From Candidatus Omnitrophota bacterium (lineage in GTDB: Bacteria; Omnitrophota; Gorgyraeia; JAGLLT01): a stretch of DNA of 34,877 nucleotides. The stretch's first letter is position 1. Every line of letters starts with the position of its first letter. The stretch lies in contig JAGLLT010000005.1 in NCBI GenBank assembly GCA_023140385.1, forward strand, positions 1 to 34,877, read 5' to 3'. The position numbers were made by a program. Below, one piece after another: positions 21,001 through 27,000 of this stretch.

Positions 21001-24000
21001 CATACCTTATTGTTTTTGTCAAGGTTTGGCGCGAAATTTTATTTCTCTTGAATTTCAACGGGCTTTAATGGATAATAGAGCCTGATTATGAGAAAAATAA
21101 ATACCGATAGATTAATCAATGGTAGTATATCAAAAAGTATATTTATCCTAACCCTGCCTCTACTGGTGCGGGCCGGGCTCCAATCCACCCAGACTATCAT
21201 TGACATCTTCTGGGTGGGCAAGCTGGGGCCCGCCTCAATCGCGGCCGTAGCTATGGCCGCCACCGTCATTATGGCCTTTTTCCCTCTTTTAATAGGCATA
21301 GGTACGGGAGCCGCCGCTTTGGTCTCTCGGGCAATAGGCGCCAAAAATCAAGAGGCGGCGGATAATACGGCTACTCAGTCAATAATCATTGCCTTTCTTA
21401 CCGCTCTTTTTCTATGTATAGTCGGCCTAATTTTTTCAAAACCCCTACTCGTGCTTCTTCAGGCAAAAGGTACTGTCCTAACAGAGGGGCATCTTTATTT
21501 AAAAATTATATTTTTGGGCGGCATCACGACCACTCTTCTTTTTTTAGGCAGCGCTATTTTACAGGGCGCCGGAGATACCCTTGTTCCTATGTGTATCATG
21601 GGTTTCTGCGTCCTGGCTAATATTGTTCTTGACCCCATTTTAATCTTTGGCCATTTTGGTGTACCCAAGCTCGGTGTAAGCGGAGCGGCTCTGGCCACCA
21701 TTATAGCTGACGCTCTGGGAGCAATTATTCTTCTGCATATTCTTTTTAAAGGCAGGTCGCATATCCATATAAGATTTGACAAGTTTAAGATAAACACGGC
21801 TGTAATGTGGCAAATTATGAAGATAGGTATTCCGTCATCCGTCCAGATGTTTTTCAGAAACCTGATGGGTATGCTCCTGATGGGTATTGTAGCCTCCTTT
21901 GGCACTTACGCGGTCGCCGCCTACGGCATAGGCATGCGGTTAAGAATGATAATTCTCCTGCCCGCCTTCTCTTTTGGAACGGCCGCGGCCACTCTGGTAG
22001 GTCAGAACCTGGGAGCGAAAAAACCCCAAAGAGCCCAAAAGTGCGCCTGGCAGGCGGCCTTAATCAACGCCTCTATTATGGCCTTTGTTGGCCTGATTTT
22101 CTTTATTTTTTCTGATAATATTATCGGAATTTTTAACAGCAATCAGGAAGTTATCACGGCGGGAGGACACTATCTGAGAATCACTTCTCTGTTCTTTCCG
22201 GCTATAGCTTTTGGTGTAGTTTTAGGCCGGTCTATGAGCGGAGCCGGAGACACTATAACTCCTATGGTTATAACAATTTTATGCCTATGCGGCATACAGA
22301 TACCTTTGGCTATAGGCCTGTCCCGTTTCAGCAGCCAGGGATTAAGCGGAATATGGTGGGCTATAGCCGCGGCTTCGTTAATTCAGGGTATTTTAGCTAT
22401 AATCTGGTTTAAGGCCGGCAGATGGAAAAAAAGAAAACTTAACTTTTAGAAAACAAGGTAAAAATACAAAATTATGACTATTTATGATATATGCAAAAAA
22501 TACAAGGTTGACCTGAAAGTTGCTGAAGTCCTAAATAAACACGGCTACAACCAGCTCTATCCTCCTCAAGAAACCGTCCTTAATGCCGGCGCCTTAGAAG
22601 GAAAAAACCTTGTTCTCTCAATGCCTACCGCCAGTGGAAAAACACTTATAGCCGAGCTTTGTATGCTGCGCTCAATTTTAGAAAGCGGCGGCAAGTGCCT
22701 CTACGTGGTTCCGTTAAGGGCCCTGGCTAATGAAAAATATGAAAATCTAAAGGACAAATACTCATCGCTGGGTATTAAAATAGCTATAGCAACCGGCGAT
22801 TACGACACTCCTTCAAAATACCTGGCCTCTTATCATATAATTGTCGCGACTTCTGAAAAAGTGGACTCGCTTTTGCGGTTTAAGGCGCGCTGGCTTTCTG
22901 AAAGCCTGACGGTAGCTGTTTTTGATGAGATACACCTTTTGAATGACGCATCAAGAGGGCCGACATTGGAAGTTCTGATTGCCAGATTAAAACAATTTAA
23001 TCACGCCCTGCAAATAATCGGCCTGTCGGCCACCATAAAAAATGCCGGGCAAATCGCCAAGTGGCTTGAAGCTGAGTGCTTTATCAGTGATTGGCGTCCG
23101 GTTAGCTTAAAAGAGGGGGTTTACTTCAATGAAGCAGTCAGGTTTGAAGACGGTCAAATCAGGCCTTTAAAGCACATCTCCTCTACACCAATAAATTCCC
23201 TTTGCATGGATACGGTAAAAGAAAGCGGCCAGGTACTTGTCTTTGTCAATACCAGACGTTCCACTCAGGCTGAAGCCAGGCGTATCGCGCCTAATATCAG
23301 AGGCGTCCTGACAGAAAATGATAAAACAAAATTGGAGGTTATCTCAAAAAAAATCACCACCTCAAACCGGGAGCCGACAAAGGTATGCAAAGAGCTAAGT
23401 GAATGTGTAAAAAATGGCGTTGCCTTTCATCATGCCGGCCTTACTCATCAAGAAAGGAAACTGGTAGAAGATAACTTCAAAGGTAATATTATAAAGGTAA
23501 TCTGCTCTACGCCGACCCTTGCCGCCGGCGTTAATCTTCCGGCCAGGCGGGTAATAATCAGAGATTATAAGCGCTACGATGTCAGCCTGGGCGGCTCCCA
23601 CAGCATAGCCGTCTTTGAATATAAACAGATGCGCGGACGAGCCGGGCGCCCTAAATACGACACCATAGGAGAAGCAATAATTATAGCCAAGTCCGAGGAT
23701 GAGCAGGATGTTCTTTTTGATGAATTTATTCATGCCGAACCTGAGCCCATCATATCAAAGCTGGGCAGTGAAAACGCCCTATGCATGCACATACTTTCAT
23801 CCATCTCATCAGGTTATATATGCTCACATAATGGCCTGATGGACTTTTTAAGCCATACCTTCTTTTCTCAGCAGGAAGATCCTGATGAATTAGAGTATAT
23901 TATTGAGCGTATAATCGACTTTTTGGGCTGTGAGGAAATGATTGCCGTTTCTAATAACAAATACGAGCCAACTCCTTTTGGCAGCCTGATATCACGGCTT

Positions 24001-27000
24001 TACATCAAACCGCATTCAGGCTTACTGTTAAAAAAGGGCTTAGAAAATTCATCGCGTATTTATCCTTCCGCCATAAACCTCTTGCATCTTATTTGCGCCT
24101 GTCCGGATATGGGAAACCTAAGATTAAGCAAAAAAACTCAGGATGAGGTTGAGATGTTCTTCGGGTTAAACAACGAGGATTTGCTTCTGCCCTTTGGAGA
24201 GTACTTCTCGCGCTCCGACTACAGGGTCTATTTAGAAATGATTTTAACAACGTTGATGCTTAGCAATTGGATGGAAGAAACTAAAGAAGACGAGATATGC
24301 GATAAGTTCCCGGTCGGCCCCGGAGACATAAGAAGATATATTGAAACGGCCAAATGGCTTCTTTATTCTACGGAACAGCTTGCCCGCCTCCTTAAAATGG
24401 AAACAATTATACCACTGCTCCAAAAACTGCAGACGCGCGTAAGGTACGGTATCAAAGAAGAGCTTCTAAATCTGGTAAGCCTGAAGGAGATTGGGCGCGT
24501 CAGGGCGAGAAGTCTTTATAAAAATGGTATTAAGCAATTACGCGATGTAAAAGCGGCCAAAACTGAAACACTGATGAGGGCGGCCAACATCGGCAAAGTT
24601 ATAGCCGCTAACATAAAAAAACAGGTTGAAAAATAAGCTATAGAAACTTCCAGAAGGTAATTCCCAGGACAACTAATAGCGCGGCAAAAAAGCGCAGGTA
24701 TGCTTTTGGCATATTGCCTATCAAATCGTCAAATTTGGCGCCGGCCTTTTGATTAACAAATAAAAAAAGCTTAACGGCCATAATAATCCCCGCGGTAGTC
24801 AGCACCTTTAACCATATACCTTGTGCCTTAAAAAACAAGCTAAGGCCAAAGCTTCCCGCGAATAAAAGCAGAAAAATCAGGGTTTTAAACCGCTTCTTCC
24901 TCGCCTTCTTTCTGAAAAAACCCTGAATAAATCCCGGATACAATAAGCCCACAAACCCAATCAGAATCCAGAATATACCAATAATTTTATTAATCACAAT
25001 TAAAATACTTACCGATTAATAAGTTTAAAATTTAAAGCGAAAAACTTAAAACCATAGCTAAAAATTCAAAATTTTTTATCTTTTTACTTTTACGTTATAG
25101 TTTTACGCTTTTAGTTTTCTTGTCATTCAATCGCGTGCTGAGTCCAATTCGTCCAGTCTATGCTTTTCTCCCAGTTGGAGTCCTTCATAGGGGTAATAAT
25201 AATATCTATGGGTGCTGAAAAAACATCCCCGCAATTAAAGACGCACTCAAGATTTGTCCCATCGGTAAGTGAAAAGTAACCAACTTTCAGCATATCCCTT
25301 ATATCATTAAAAGTGTACTCATCGGCAATTGCAGCGCCGCTGTTATTAATTACGAAAAAGTCGGCTACCAGATTATGGCTGCCGCTGATACTGATTATAA
25401 AACCGTCGGTAGTCGTGCTGGTTGCCGCGTAACAAGCTGTGATAGTGTTAAACTCAACCGTACCATTAACCTTAAGTTCGTAACCGGATACCTGCTGTCT
25501 CCAATCGGCATCATATACTCTGTCGGCAAAAAACACCGTTTCTTCTATGGAATCATCATTGTGAGCCAGGTCAATTTCCATCTTCGTAGGATAGGCAAGC
25601 TTTGAGTTACTCTCCCCCACCTGATAATAAGTAGTATCAGTACTGGTTATTTTATAGGTTCCGCTATCATCAAAAACATTCAGGTAATCACTCCAGGGGA
25701 GTTCATTTACCTCATCTCCTTCAATATCACGGTTAAAGGTGGTAAGCCAGCTAAGGGTCGTTAGCCCTTCCCTGCTCTGGTTGGAAGCGTCGTTGGTTCT
25801 TAAATTAATATCTAATATCTGGATTTTTTTTGAATTTGGGCGCAAAATATACTGCTCAACCCTCACGCGGTTGCCCTCTCTGTCAGTCATCACCTTGTGC
25901 ATCTGGGCATCGGCGCGCTGGGTAAGACGAGCGTCCATATCGCGCCAGTACATATCGGTAGTATGCTGGGCTATATCATCCCTTAAGCTGCCGATTTCTA
26001 TTAAGTTGAGTATCTTCTGCCTTATCTCATGGCGGGAACCATAGCCTTTTACAGAACTGTCATCGTGAATAACAGCGTCACTTATAAAGGCATCCTCGTT
26101 ATTCCTTATACCGTCGCCGTCAGAGTCGGCGTAGTCATAATAGTCTCTGGGGTATGTATCGGCCGTGTTAAGATATCCGTCGCCGTCAATATCACTGTCA
26201 AATTCGTCATCTATGCCGTCGCCGTCAAGGTCATTACCGGAGGCGCGGCTTGAGTCATTAGGATACAAATCATCACTGTCTAAAACACCGTCGCCGTCCG
26301 AGTCAAGAAGGCTATCCTGTCTTCTTTTCTCGGCGCCCTGGCTATCCTGATCGCTCTCTTTATCGAGCACCGCGTCTTCCTGAGAATCATCCAAATTATC
26401 ACCAATATTATCAGTATCACCGGTTACATTATTGTCGCCTTTAGAAGAAGATCCTTCAGCGGGGGGATTATTGCCCATCATAGTTCCGACTGACTTTTTC
26501 CAACTCTTCCATTTATTTTTTTCCTGAGAGCTCAACTTTCTGTCCGGCCCGACAAAATCACGGCCTATCACTTTTTTAAAGCCCTCCTTGATCACATACT
26601 CATCACCGGACGGCTTTCCATCTTTGCCGGTTTGCTGAAAATAAATGTTGTGCTCAAAGCAGGAAGCCGTTGTAACGGGATTATGCTTAACACTAAAACC
26701 CGTACCCTTTGAACCGCAGATTGCCGTTGGCGTACGGACTTCAAACTTAGAACCCCCTTTAAAGCCCTCCAGGATACAAAACAGCTTTCCTTTGTCAAGC
26801 CCGAACTCTGTCCGCGCCGGTTCTATTTTGTTCATAGTAACAACCGTATCAGCGTCCACTTTTAGTACACCTTTTAAATCAGGTTCATTTTTACAGCTAA
26901 TGAGAAGCTCGGCGTAAGAGTTCTTTTTGCCGGTCTTTAACATATCTCCTTCAGACAACTCTCTGCCAACTTCCGCCGCCCGCCATAATTTTGCGCCATC

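What a model noticed while it worked through the whole genome (the two positions that open the first line are those of the whole stretch)
22474..24636. A full-length archaeal-type Hel308 DNA helicase in a bacterium
g01312 (720 aa) is an ortholog of Hel308, the replication-fork repair helicase of archaea and animals that bacteria are held to lack. It has all five Hel308 domains, including the archaeal winged-helix (HTH_61) and domain-4 ratchet (Helicase_dom4_arc) modules and the C-terminal HhH domain, and is 44% identical over its whole length to Hel308 of Methanocella and Methanosarcina. Orthologs are kept, family by family, in a subset of class Gorgyraeia and form one clade next to archaeal Hel308. 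An archaeal gene was therefore captured once and has since been inherited vertically in these bacteria.
Evidence so far: pfam.tsv: DEAD, Helicase_C, HTH_61 (1e-8), Helicase_dom4_arc (1e-33, 124/125 positions), HHH_5. swissprot.tsv: the five best hits are archaeal Hel308, 40-44% identity over 703-725 aa, E 5e-180. relatives.tsv: HTH_61 in 5/7 genomes of the order, 15/1029 of the phylum, share 0.000 of 189,784 bacterial genomes, 7.3% of archaeal. Six-frame search with g01312: 12 of 201 phylum genomes at E<=1e-200, 45-66% identity, in families f1 2/2, f18 2/2, f19 1/1, f22 3/3, f26 1/1, f30 1/1, f27 1/2, and 0 of 188 elsewhere. Big-database hits at 50-52% identity carry archaeal names (Hadarchaeales x7, MSBL1, Hodarchaeaceae); hits at 52-96% carry Omnitrophota names and one Ratteibacteria. 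Quick ML tree of 28 seq [...]
(Added by a program. Inside this text positions count along the whole contig: contig position 1 is position 1 of the stretch shown here. "Call 12" and the like, gene names such as g00115 and contig names such as C1 are that model's own, and its searches are not shown. The text may have been shortened before it was handed on; [...] marks where a part breaks off. The agent that wrote the report below was given it as the finding of a first reader that could run no searches.)

Follow-up and report, generated by a model that had tools for sequence, protein, structure and literature searches.

The report
Archaeal-type Hel308 helicase in Omnitrophota bacterium
A bacterium of the uncultivated phylum Omnitrophota carries an intact, conserved copy of Hel308, a DNA-repair helicase usually said to be missing from bacteria, and it got the gene from archaea.

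Summary
ORF 22474-24636 (+) encodes a 720-aa protein with all five Hel308 domains, every helicase motif intact, and a confident model (pLDDT 92) that superposes on solved archaeal Hel308/Hjm structures over its whole length (TM 0.86-0.95). The contig is bacterial (PlsX, AcrB, TolC-like OEP, MarR, MatE). The gene is native: its neighbourhood is conserved across the order, dN/dS is 0.04-0.10, and a relative sits in a single-contig 3.4-Mb genome.

In two trees the window's gene falls in one well-supported bacterial clade. That clade is sister to Hadarchaeales/MSBL1 Hel308 and nested within archaeal diversity, so one capture from archaea is supported. Three points need correcting:
- Two Omnitrophota genomes carry a different Hel308, closest to Aenigmatarchaeota. 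An AU test rejects a single clade (p 7e-7).
- Bipolaricaulota/Acetothermia hold a further large Hel308 clade.
- Carriers form four separate blocks on an RpoB tree, so descent is vertical within families but not shown across the class.

The host keeps RecG, RecQ, PriA and RuvB; Hjc and PCNA were not found. Hel308 is therefore an addition that works without those two archaeal partners. Activity is untested. No paper reporting this was found.

The parts
22474..24636 (+). Hel308 gene (720 aa, P0001)
   Evidence: ORF. Pfam five-domain architecture. Whole-length sequence matches to solved Hel308/Hjm. AF2 model with pLDDT 92.2 and TM 0.86-0.95 to 2zj2, 2zj8, 2va8 and 2p6r. dN/dS 0.070 against the 96%-identical orthologue L067.
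22561..23043 (+). RecA-like domain 1 (residues 30-190): Q motif, Walker A PTASGKT, DEIH, SAT
   Evidence: Pfam DEAD 1.5e-32. Q32, T52, G55, K56, D151, E152, H154, S185, A186 and T187 are invariant in 57 aligned Hel308 sequences.
23317..23652 (+). RecA-like domain 2 (residues 282-393): FHHAGL, TPTLAAGVNLP, QMRGRAGRP
   Evidence: Pfam Helicase_C 1.4e-13. F318, H319, H320, G322, L323, T346, T348, G352, P356, Q385, G388, R389, G391, R392 and P393 are invariant.
23668..23943 (+). Domain 3, winged helix (residues 399-490)
   Evidence: Pfam HTH_61 1.5e-8, 35.3 bits against a cut-off of 24.3, model positions 1-91 of 92.
24076..24450 (+). Domain 4, helical 'ratchet' domain (residues 535-659)
   Evidence: Pfam Helicase_dom4_arc 8e-33, model positions 2-125 of 125. 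The genome search gives the same coordinates. W599, E602, G617 and W628 are invariant. Position 591 is L here where at least 90% of the aligned sequences have K.
24469..24627 (+). Domain 5, helix-hairpin-helix (residues 666-718) with GRVRAR
   Evidence: Pfam HHH_5 2.6e-7. G674, R675, R677 and R679 are invariant. The protein ends 2 residues after the domain, with no C-terminal tail such as P. furiosus Hjm has.
21088..22449 (+). MatE-family efflux gene directly upstream, same strand, 24-nt gap; probably co-transcribed with Hel308 (inferred)
   Evidence: Pfam MatE 3.1e-69. No terminator-like site lies between the two genes. The MatE-Hel308 adjacency is conserved in families f1 and f2 at 64-69% MatE identity. 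Sequence of the gap.
21048..21076 (+). Promoter-like site ahead of MatE (TTGAAT-17-GATAAT)
   Evidence: Consensus scan. The number of sites found (10) is no more than in shuffles (9.1), so this is weak evidence.
20527..20964 (-). MarR-family regulator, divergent from MatE-Hel308
   Evidence: Pfam MarR 4.7e-15. Conserved in the same position in L032.
15856..20490 (-). AcrB-type RND pump (15856-18987) and outer-membrane efflux protein (19003-20490): bacterial context markers
   Evidence: Pfam ACR_tran 5e-201 and OEP 4e-32. Syntenic in L032 and in L035, which comes from a 413,928-bp contig.

Best explanation
The gene encodes a bona fide, functional Hel308 (Hjm) orthologue. Hel308 is a Ski2-like superfamily-2 helicase that binds single-stranded DNA, moves 3'->5' using ATP, and opens duplex at stalled or broken replication forks. 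Its domain-4 helix acts as a ratchet and its C-terminal HhH domain holds the emerging strand. This mechanism is taken from the solved archaeal enzymes and is inferred here.

An ancestor of this Omnitrophota lineage took the gene from an archaeon related to Hadarchaeota/MSBL1. The gene has since been kept under strong purifying selection, inherited vertically within families, and fully adapted to the host's base composition. In the window's order it sits behind a MatE efflux gene and opposite a MarR regulator.

It was added to an ordinary bacterial fork-repair set (RecG, RecQ, PriA, RuvB). Hjc and PCNA were not found, so it must work either alone or with bacterial SSB and replisome proteins (inferred).

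The capture is one of at least two, and probably three, separate entries of Hel308 into bacteria.
For: Identity:
- Five Pfam domains above their cut-offs.
- All helicase motifs and the domain-5 GRxRAR motif are invariant in 57 aligned Hel308 sequences.
- AF2 model pLDDT 92.2. Its best fold matches over ~700 columns are Hjm 2zj8/2zj5/2zj2, Sso 2va8 and Afu 2p6r, at TM 0.86-0.95. The PolQ helicase domain scores only 0.70-0.80.

Bacterial and native:
- Neighbours are PlsX, AckA, Pta, AcrB, OEP, MarR, MatE and a weak SurA-like match, E 8.5e-6, below Pfam's cut-off.
- G000 is 92.7% complete with 0.16% contamination.
- GC is 0.42-0.45, like the rest of the contig.
- The AcrB-OEP-MarR|MatE-Hel308 order is conserved in five further assemblies of families f1 and f2, one on a 414-kb contig.
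- An orthologue lies at 1.95 Mb in the one-contig 3.4-Mb genome G357.
- Other loci have bacterial neighbours: BamD/YfiO, Pol III delta, MurJ, a TonB-dependent receptor, PilZ.

Selection: dN/dS is 0.035-0.105 in 9 of the 9 pairs for which dS could be computed. A tenth pair was saturated.

Origin:
- Careful LG+G4 tree of 83 sequences: main bacterial clade 100/99; joined with Hadarchaeales/MSBL1 100/98; then Bipolaricaulota 100/99; all nested among Asgard, TACK, DPANN and Thermococcus-type Hel308.
- The LG+C20 PMSF quick tree gives the same topology.

Distribution: 57 main-type carriers among 401 phylum genomes. They all fall in 14 families, in which 57 of 66 genomes carry the gene. It is found in 0 of 227 other genomes of the class and 0 of 108 genomes of other classes.

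Addition, not replacement: G000 has RecG (732 bits), a RecQ-family helicase (458), PriA (444) and RuvB (448), all above their cut-offs. Hjc and PCNA_N were not found. Bacterial SSB is present in 45 of 46 genomes searched.
Against: - There are no activity or expression data. No RNA run was listed.
- All genomes are metagenome-assembled, and the archaeal and bacterial labels of database proteins are the depositors' own. One 'Hodarchaeaceae' and one 'Bathyarchaeia' label sit in unexpected places in the tree.
- NCBIfam equivalog cut-offs are not reached: PRK02362 scores 855.8 against 887, and helicase_Hel308 scores 601 against 1200.
- The nearest sister, P0046, is unlabelled.
- The tree rests on one gene and is rooted on a very long outgroup branch.
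- The topology (Bipolaricaulota,(Hadarchaeota,Omnitrophota)) is equally parsimonious with a back-transfer from bacteria into Hadarchaeota.
- Position 591 in domain 4 is L where at least 90% of homologues have K.
- RecQ is more frequent in carriers (13 of 27) than in non-carriers (6 of 53) in a hand-picked set. No gap-filling role is visible.
Confidence: 0.82

Rival explanations
1. Assembly or binning artefact: an archaeal contig, or a chimeric piece, wrongly placed in a bacterial bin.
For: All genomes are MAGs. The closest non-bacterial relatives are archaeal at 50-52% identity.
Against: - The gene lies mid-contig, between bacterial-type genes on both sides.
- The same gene order recurs in independent assemblies.
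- It occurs in a one-contig 3.4-Mb genome.
- The 57 carriers follow family taxonomy.
- GC matches the contig.
- Contamination is 0.16%.
Confidence: 0.01
2. The direction is reversed for the nearest archaea. Hel308 entered bacteria earlier, from some other archaeon, and Hadarchaeota/MSBL1 later took their copy from an Omnitrophota-like bacterium.
For: The topology (Bipolaricaulota,(Hadarchaeales/MSBL1,Omnitrophota)) needs two transfers under either direction.
Against: - Hel308 rang in 4 of the 4 archaeal control genomes and in none of the 10 bacterial ones. By recall, it is near-universal in archaea. A replacement would therefore need an extra loss of the native copy.
- The whole 44-row group is nested among archaeal sequences.
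Confidence: 0.08
3. It is a defence helicase (Hachiman HamB-like or a similar Ski2-like sensor), not a repair enzyme.
For: PADLOC HamB models match at up to 170 bits. HamB is described as functionally similar to Hel308 (PMC12278908, passages read).
Against: - The HamB matches cover only the RecA core (residues ~26-213 and ~245-410), and score far below the Hel308 models (856 bits).
- None of the four neighbours scanned has a PADLOC match, so there is no HamA-like partner.
- Domains 3-5 are of the Hel308 type.
- The locus is syntenic housekeeping DNA, not an island.
Confidence: 0.04
4. It is an ancient bacterial gene inherited from the common ancestor of bacteria and archaea and lost almost everywhere.
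For: None specific. Deep nodes of the tree are poorly resolved.
Against: - The bacterial clades are nested at two distant places inside archaeal diversity, with 100/100 and 100/98 support.
- 0 of 108 genomes of other Omnitrophota classes have it.
- It rang in none of the 10 bacterial control genomes.
Confidence: 0.02
5. The gene has been retained but acts on RNA, as some archaeal Ski2-like helicases do, rather than on DNA forks.
For: The Ski2-like family includes RNA helicases. The 2024 Ski2 paper (PMC10946056, passages only) treats Hel308 alongside the RNA helicase ASH-Ski2.
Against: The sequence falls inside the Hel308 clade together with P. furiosus Hjm, a DNA helicase. It keeps the HhH domain 5 with its GRxRAR motif.
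Confidence: 0.03

Closest known systems
Archaeal Hel308 / Hjm (P. furiosus Hjm 2ZJ2/2ZJ8; A. fulgidus Hel308 2P6R; S. solfataricus Hel308 2VA8)
   Same: - Length is ~720 aa, with the same five domains in the same order.
- All motifs are conserved.
- 39-41% identity in the structural alignments (38-41% for Hjm and Afu, 37% for Sso).
- TM 0.86-0.95 over the whole chain.
- The sequence falls inside the archaeal Hel308 tree.
   Different: - The host is a bacterium.
- There is no C-terminal tail after domain 5, whereas Hjm has about 19 further residues.
- PCNA and Hjc were not found in the host genome.
- Position 591 is L rather than K.
- It scores just below NCBI's equivalog cut-off.
Hel308 of Hadarchaeales / MSBL1 archaea (nearest archaeal relatives)
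   Same: 50-52% identity over the full length. Sister clade with 100/98 support and 97.
   Different: Separated from the bacterial clade by a supported branch (100/99). The labels are depositor names of MAGs and were not checked here.
Hel308 of Bipolaricaulota/Acetothermia and the second (Aenigmatarchaeota-like) Omnitrophota Hel308
   Same: Both are full-length Hel308 in bacteria. The Aenigmatarchaeota-like pair lacks an HHH_5 match at E<=1e-5, and one of the two also lacks HTH_61.
   Different: They form separate clades at 40-45% identity to the window's protein, with different nearest archaea. They represent independent entries.
Metazoan HELQ and the helicase domain of DNA polymerase theta
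   Same: Same family and domain order. PolQ-helicase structures match at TM 0.70-0.80 and at E 2e-64 over residues 17-411.
   Different: Much more distant: 26-28% identity. The sequence match is limited to the core.
Hachiman HamB, bacterial Lhr and RecQ
   Same: SF2 3'->5' helicases with a shared RecA core. HamB models match at up to 170 bits. RecQ and Lhr-type models match weakly.
   Different: - There is no HamA partner.
- No DEAD_assoc/Lhr domain was listed at E<=0.01.
- Domains 3-5 are of the Hel308 type.
- The host has its own RecQ on contig C9.

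Membership tests
Hel308 / Hjm (Ski2-like SF2 DNA helicase) | Two RecA-like domains with an intact Q motif and motifs I, Ia, II (DExH), III, IVa, V and VI | tested here: met
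   Pfam DEAD and Helicase_C. Q32, T52/G55/K56, D151-E152-H154, S185-A186-T187, FHHxGL 318-323, T346/T348/G352/P356 and Q385/G388-R389/G391-R392-P393 are invariant in 57 sequences.
Hel308 / Hjm (Ski2-like SF2 DNA helicase) | Domain 3: winged helix between the core and the ratchet domain | tested here: met
   HTH_61, 35.3 bits against a cut-off of 24.3, residues 399-490. Modelled with pLDDT above 90.
Hel308 / Hjm (Ski2-like SF2 DNA helicase) | Domain 4: helical ratchet domain | tested here: met
   Helicase_dom4_arc, 113.4 bits, model positions 2-125 of 125. Long helix 580-600 in the model. W599 is invariant. Which residues contact DNA is recalled from the A. fulgidus structure and was not tested.
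Hel308 / Hjm (Ski2-like SF2 DNA helicase) | Domain 5: C-terminal HhH domain with a conserved Arg-rich GRxRAR motif | tested here: met
   HHH_5, 31.4 bits against a cut-off of 27. G674, R675, R677 and R679 are invariant. The functional role of the motif is recalled.
Hel308 / Hjm (Ski2-like SF2 DNA helicase) | Whole-chain fold equal to solved Hel308 structures | tested here: met
   Foldseek ranks 1-9 are all Hjm/Hel308 entries, with TMq 0.86-0.89, TMt 0.89-0.95 and rmsd 2.3-3.3 over 684-725 columns.
Hel308 / Hjm (Ski2-like SF2 DNA helicase) | Orthology: placement inside the Hel308 clade that holds characterised enzymes | tested here: met
   The trees include P. furiosus Hjm (P0195) and a Saccharolobus Hel308 (P0268), and the window's protein is nested among them.
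Hel308 / Hjm (Ski2-like SF2 DNA helicase) | Score above NCBIfam equivalog cut-offs. This is an annotation rule, not a biological feature. | tested here: inconclusive
   PRK02362 scores 855.8 against 887, PRK00254 667.7 against 1216, and NF040935 601.2 against 1200. These models are tuned to particular archaeal groups, and the match is end to end (13-719 of the protein against 9-704 of 739 model positions).
Hel308 / Hjm (Ski2-like SF2 DNA helicase) | ATP-dependent 3'->5' DNA unwinding, with a preference for forks and 3' tails | not testable with these tools
   Needs the purified protein.
Hachiman HamB | Adjacent HamA (nuclease) partner and HamB-specific regions outside the core | tested here: not met
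   The PADLOC HamB match covers the core only, at 170 bits or less. The four neighbours scanned have no PADLOC match.
Bacterial Lhr | Lhr-specific DEAD_assoc / C-terminal domains | tested here: not met
   No such Pfam family is among the 8 listed at E<=0.01. Lhr-type NCBIfam models match residues ~20-280 only, at 120 bits or less.

The most novel reading that the evidence does not exclude
Hel308 is not an archaeal/eukaryotic speciality. Uncultivated anaerobic bacteria have recruited it repeatedly: Omnitrophota from a Hadarchaeota-like donor, Omnitrophota and NPL-UPA2 from an Aenigmatarchaeota-like donor, and Bipolaricaulota separately. It was then kept for family-to-order-scale time and passed between bacterial lineages.

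This would mean that the enzyme works as a self-contained module, without RPA, PCNA or Hjc, and plugs into a bacterial replisome. It would also mean that the donor identities record physical associations between these bacteria and archaea.
Probability: 0.4. Interest if true: 0.65.

Novelty: new member of a known kind. Interest (0 to 1): 0.5.

Why it matters
[quoted passage not shown] Here it is present, intact and under purifying selection in at least three bacterial groups.

That corrects the textbook distribution. It also gives natural experiments on whether Hel308 needs its archaeal partners, and offers bacterial versions that may be easier to study genetically. It adds a clean, datable case of archaea-to-bacteria transfer of a replication/repair gene into nanobacterial lineages.

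It is still a known enzyme in a new host, and single-gene transfers between domains are common. The surprise is therefore moderate.

Tried and rejected
- **Replacement of a bacterial helicase: rejected.** G000 has RecG, RecQ, PriA and RuvB. In a hand-picked set of 80 genomes, RecQ is commoner in carriers (13 of 27) than in the others (6 of 53).
- **Missing bacterial SSB in G000: an assembly gap.** 45 of 46 genomes, including the same genus, have SSB.
- **Viral vector: no support.** 73 viral contigs encode Hel308-like helicases, but at only 24-30% identity.
- **Conserved synteny across the whole clade: not found.** Neighbours differ outside the window's order.
- **Secondary transfer into the G401/G404 ('Ratteibacteria'-named) lineage: not settled.** The free tree nests their Hel308 inside the class clade. 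An AU test does not reject placing them outside (delta lnL 25.6, p 0.18).
- **Distance ratios are only suggestive.** Hel308/RpoB is 1.8 within the 27-genome clade and 1.18 between that clade and f1/f2. Rate effects could explain the difference.
- **The 'careful' search under LG+C20 was not run** (searches did not finish). Only the quick C20 tree is available.
- **Expression:** no RNA holder was listed, and read laying was not used.
- **Limits on searches:**
  - The genome-contig scan returned only 12 loci, so archaeal genomes could not be sampled by handle.
  - Archaeal labels therefore come from depositor names.
  - The context of the Bipolaricaulota-type gene (GntR, ABC transporters) is compatible with bacteria but does not prove it.
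- **Literature searches that found nothing:**
  - Hel308 + Omnitrophota.
  - Hel308 + Acetothermia.
  - Hel308 + Bipolaricaulota.
  - 'bacterial Hel308'.
  - The 10 of 78 papers listed contain no 'Hel308'.
  - In Seymour et al. 2023 (PMC10066038) the word 'helicase' occurs 0 times in the main text. Its supplements were not read.

Full report
**What is there.** The window is the whole of contig C45 of a 1.50-Mb, 57-contig assembly. That assembly is 92.7% complete with 0.16% contamination. An uninterrupted ORF runs from 22474 to 24636 on the + strand and encodes 720 residues.

Pfam finds five domains in the order that defines Hel308, all above their cut-offs:
- DEAD, residues 30-190.
- Helicase_C, residues 282-393.
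- The winged-helix HTH_61, residues 399-490.
- The archaeal domain-4 model over 124 of its 125 positions, residues 535-659.
- HHH_5, residues 666-718.

By sequence, the nearest solved proteins are P. furiosus Hjm, A. fulgidus Hel308 and S. solfataricus Hel308, at E 1e-144 to 4e-159 over residues ~10-710. Brr2, PolQ and Ski2 follow far behind and match the core only.

In an alignment of 57 Hel308 sequences every catalytic motif is invariant and present in the window's protein:
- the Q motif;
- Walker A (PTASGKT);
- DEIH;
- SAT;
- FHHAGL;
- TPTLAAGVNLP;
- QMRGRAGRP;
- W599 in domain 4;
- GRVRAR in domain 5.

An AlphaFold2 model built on that alignment has pLDDT 92.2 and pTM 0.89. Its nine best Foldseek matches in the PDB are all Hjm/Hel308 entries, at TM 0.86-0.95 over about 700 columns.

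**Is it really bacterial and native?** Yes. The contig carries PlsX, acetate kinase, phosphotransacetylase, an AcrB-type RND pump, a TolC-like outer-membrane protein, MarR, MatE and a weak SurA-like match that falls below Pfam's cut-off.
- GC in the gene (0.42-0.45) equals that of the contig.
- The order AcrB-OEP-MarR | MatE-Hel308 | orf119-orf682 recurs in independent assemblies of families f1 and f2. One of these is on a 413,928-bp contig.
- In more distant carriers the neighbours differ but are again bacterial: BamD/YfiO, Pol III delta, MurJ, a TonB-dependent receptor, PilZ.
- One orthologue lies in the middle of a single-contig 3.4-Mb genome.
- dN/dS is 0.035-0.105 in all nine pairs for which dS could be computed, and 0.070 for the window against its 96%-identical relative.

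**Rival family assignments.** PADLOC's Hachiman HamB models match only the RecA core, at 170 bits or less. None of the four neighbours scanned has a defence match. No Lhr-specific domain is present.

NCBI's equivalog cut-offs are narrowly or clearly missed: 855.8 against 887, and 601 against 1200. I read this as showing that the models are tuned to particular archaeal groups, not as evidence against membership.

**Where it came from.** A FastTree of 289 sequences placed 60 genome-derived loci of the main type and 58 database proteins in one clade with support 98. Fifty-three of those loci come from phylum genomes with family codes. None of the 58 database proteins carries an archaeal name. The clade sits next to a 63-tip clade that holds the Hadarchaeales- and MSBL1-named proteins.

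I then labelled backbone sequences through cluster look-ups and two further database searches. From these I built a careful IQ-TREE (LG+G4, 83 sequences, 723 columns). Its main results are:
- The main Omnitrophota clade has 24 rows and support 100/99.
- That clade joins Hadarchaeales/MSBL1 (11 rows, 100/98) and one unlabelled sequence at 100/98.
- A Bipolaricaulota/Acetothermia clade (8 rows, 100/100) is sister to this group at 100/99.
- The whole group lies among Asgard, TACK, Methanomassiliicoccales, DPANN and Pyrococcus Hel308.

A quick search under the site-heterogeneous LG+C20 model gives the same arrangement. Two bacterial clades sit at distant, well-supported places inside archaeal diversity, so no position of the root can make Hel308 an old bacterial gene. 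The direction archaea-to-bacteria for the family as a whole is therefore secure. For the specific Hadarchaeota/Omnitrophota pair, a back-transfer into Hadarchaeota is not excluded.

**Corrections to 'captured once, inherited vertically'.**

1. *A second Hel308 in Omnitrophota.* Genomes G226 (f14) and G201 (f31) carry a Hel308 that is only 40-42% identical to the window's. It groups with three Omnitrophica-named proteins and one NPL-UPA2-named protein. This group is sister to six Aenigmatarchaeota-named proteins, with 100/100 for the union. Holding all Omnitrophota Hel308 together costs 372 log-likelihood units, p-AU 7.5e-7. I defined that group after seeing the first tree.

2. *Bipolaricaulota/Acetothermia.* At least five 90%-identity clusters carry these names. 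They include 'Acetothermia bacterium 64_32' and a protein on a 1,887,171-bp contig of 'Bipolaricaulota sp. J31'. So the gene is not confined to one class of one phylum.

3. *Distribution on a species proxy.* In the phylum sample, 57 of 401 genomes carry the main type. All are in 14 families, in which 57 of 66 genomes have it. None of 227 other genomes of the class has it, and none of 108 genomes of other classes. Within families descent looks vertical. Family labels need 12 changes on the gene tree, which is the minimum possible, against 31-39 in shuffles. An RpoB tree shows a 27-genome clade (support 100) in which 22 genomes carry it, and I had picked the five negatives as negatives. Branching order inside that clade broadly matches the Hel308 tree.

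On the RpoB tree, however, the carriers form four separate blocks:
- the 27-genome clade;
- f1+f2 with G410;
- f44 with G405;
- the pair G401/G404, which lies outside the class clade.

Many Hel308-less families lie between these blocks. The minimum is four changes of state on the 77 genomes left after removing the negatives I had picked.

Hel308 distances between f1/f2 and the 27-genome clade are shorter than RpoB distances predict: 1.37 observed against 1.93 expected. That hints at lateral spread among bacteria. An AU test, though, does not reject a tree in which the class sequences form one clade excluding G401/G404 (p 0.18). One capture followed by a few bacterial-to-bacterial transfers, or one older capture followed by a dozen losses, both remain open.

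**How it probably works.** The solved archaeal enzymes suggest the following, which is inferred and not shown here. The protein loads on single-stranded DNA. It moves 3'->5' by ATP-driven closure of the two RecA domains. It ratchets the strand along the domain-4 helix, separates duplex at a hairpin in domain 2, and holds the exiting strand with the HhH domain.

In the host it joins, rather than replaces, the bacterial fork-repair set. RecG, a RecQ-family helicase, PriA and RuvB are all present above their cut-offs. Hjc and PCNA were not found in this 92.7%-complete genome. Bacterial SSB is found in 45 of 46 genomes searched; it is missing only from the window's own assembly, and the same genus has it. 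The protein also lacks the C-terminal tail that follows domain 5 in P. furiosus Hjm. It therefore has to act alone or through bacterial partners.

In the window's order the gene lies 24 nt behind a MatE efflux gene. No terminator-like site lies between them, and a MarR gene diverges from the pair. Co-transcription is likely but unproven, and the link to efflux is unexplained.

[quoted passage not shown] Full-text searches combining Hel308 with Omnitrophota, Acetothermia or Bipolaricaulota, and a search for 'bacterial Hel308', found no paper. The main Omnitrophota genomics paper does not contain the word 'helicase' in its main text. Its supplements were not read.

The proteins themselves are in public databases under generic names such as 'DEAD/DEAH box helicase' or 'putative ski2-type helicase'. 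I rate this as a new member of a known kind: a textbook distribution corrected, with a useful evolutionary story, but no new mechanism.

Noticed in passing
Proteins P0132, P0272, P0292, P0299, P0301, P0303, P0545; loci L149-L153: A diverse Hel308 clade (57-84% identity among members) carries Bipolaricaulota/Acetothermia names. One member is on a 1,887,171-bp contig. The clade is sister to the Hadarchaeales + Omnitrophota group (100/99). The neighbours in L152 are a GntR regulator and ABC transporters.
   Followed up: partly
L063 (G226:C39) 2977-5106 and L064 (G201:C82) 885-3059: A second, independent Hel308 in two Omnitrophota genomes, closest to Aenigmatarchaeota-named proteins (55-56% identity). 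It groups with Omnitrophica- and NPL-UPA2-named proteins. In L063 it lies next to a GemA-like gene and an HhH-GPD glycosylase. In L064 it lies next to an SNase-like nuclease and a PilZ protein.
   Followed up: partly
L036/L039 (genomes G404, G401; the L039 record is named Ratteibacteria): By RpoB these two genomes branch outside the window's class. Their Hel308, however, nests inside the class's clade in the free trees. This suggests a bacterial-to-bacterial transfer, but an AU test does not reject the alternative (p 0.18).
   Followed up: yes
RpoB loci L106-L148 (for example G357:C1:1834172-1836931): In a 43-genome subclade of the class (support 100), RpoB matches TIGR02013 only from model position ~296 on. 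Its ORFs are 1069-1194 aa, against full-length matches and 1229-1294 aa elsewhere. The N-terminal part of RpoB is divergent or replaced in that subclade.
   Followed up: no
Viral loci L157-L229: 73 IMG/VR contigs, some of 250-530 kb, encode helicases that align with nearly the whole of Hel308 (query residues ~45-706) at 24-30% identity.
   Followed up: no
window 25123-27171 (-) and 27374-29626 (-): Two adjacent large genes (682 and 750 aa, the second with a FecR domain) are paralogues of each other. Each hits the same regions in related loci. Both are conserved downstream of Hel308 in family f1.
   Followed up: no
window 33833-34816 (-): An IS200-like Y1 transposase gene (Pfam Y1_Tnp 9.6e-14) lies near the contig end, 9 kb from Hel308.
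   Followed up: no
G371:C57:14871-16966: The Hel308 of this genome is in two adjacent pieces with an in-frame TGA. It may be a broken copy or a sequencing error.
   Followed up: no
G000 whole genome: No bacterial SSB (PF00436) match in the window's own assembly. 45 of 46 related genomes have one, including the same genus, so this is taken as an assembly gap.
   Followed up: yes
80 hand-picked Omnitrophota genomes: RecQ-family helicases are rare in this phylum sample (19 of 80). They are concentrated in the same lineages that carry Hel308.
   Followed up: partly
Proteins P0122, P0124, P0126, P0131, P0082 and others: Many Hel308 representatives are 850-1400 aa long and match in two or three stretches. 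P0082 carries a LAGLIDADG domain and P0124 an intein-splicing domain. This points to inteins inserted in Hel308.
   Followed up: no
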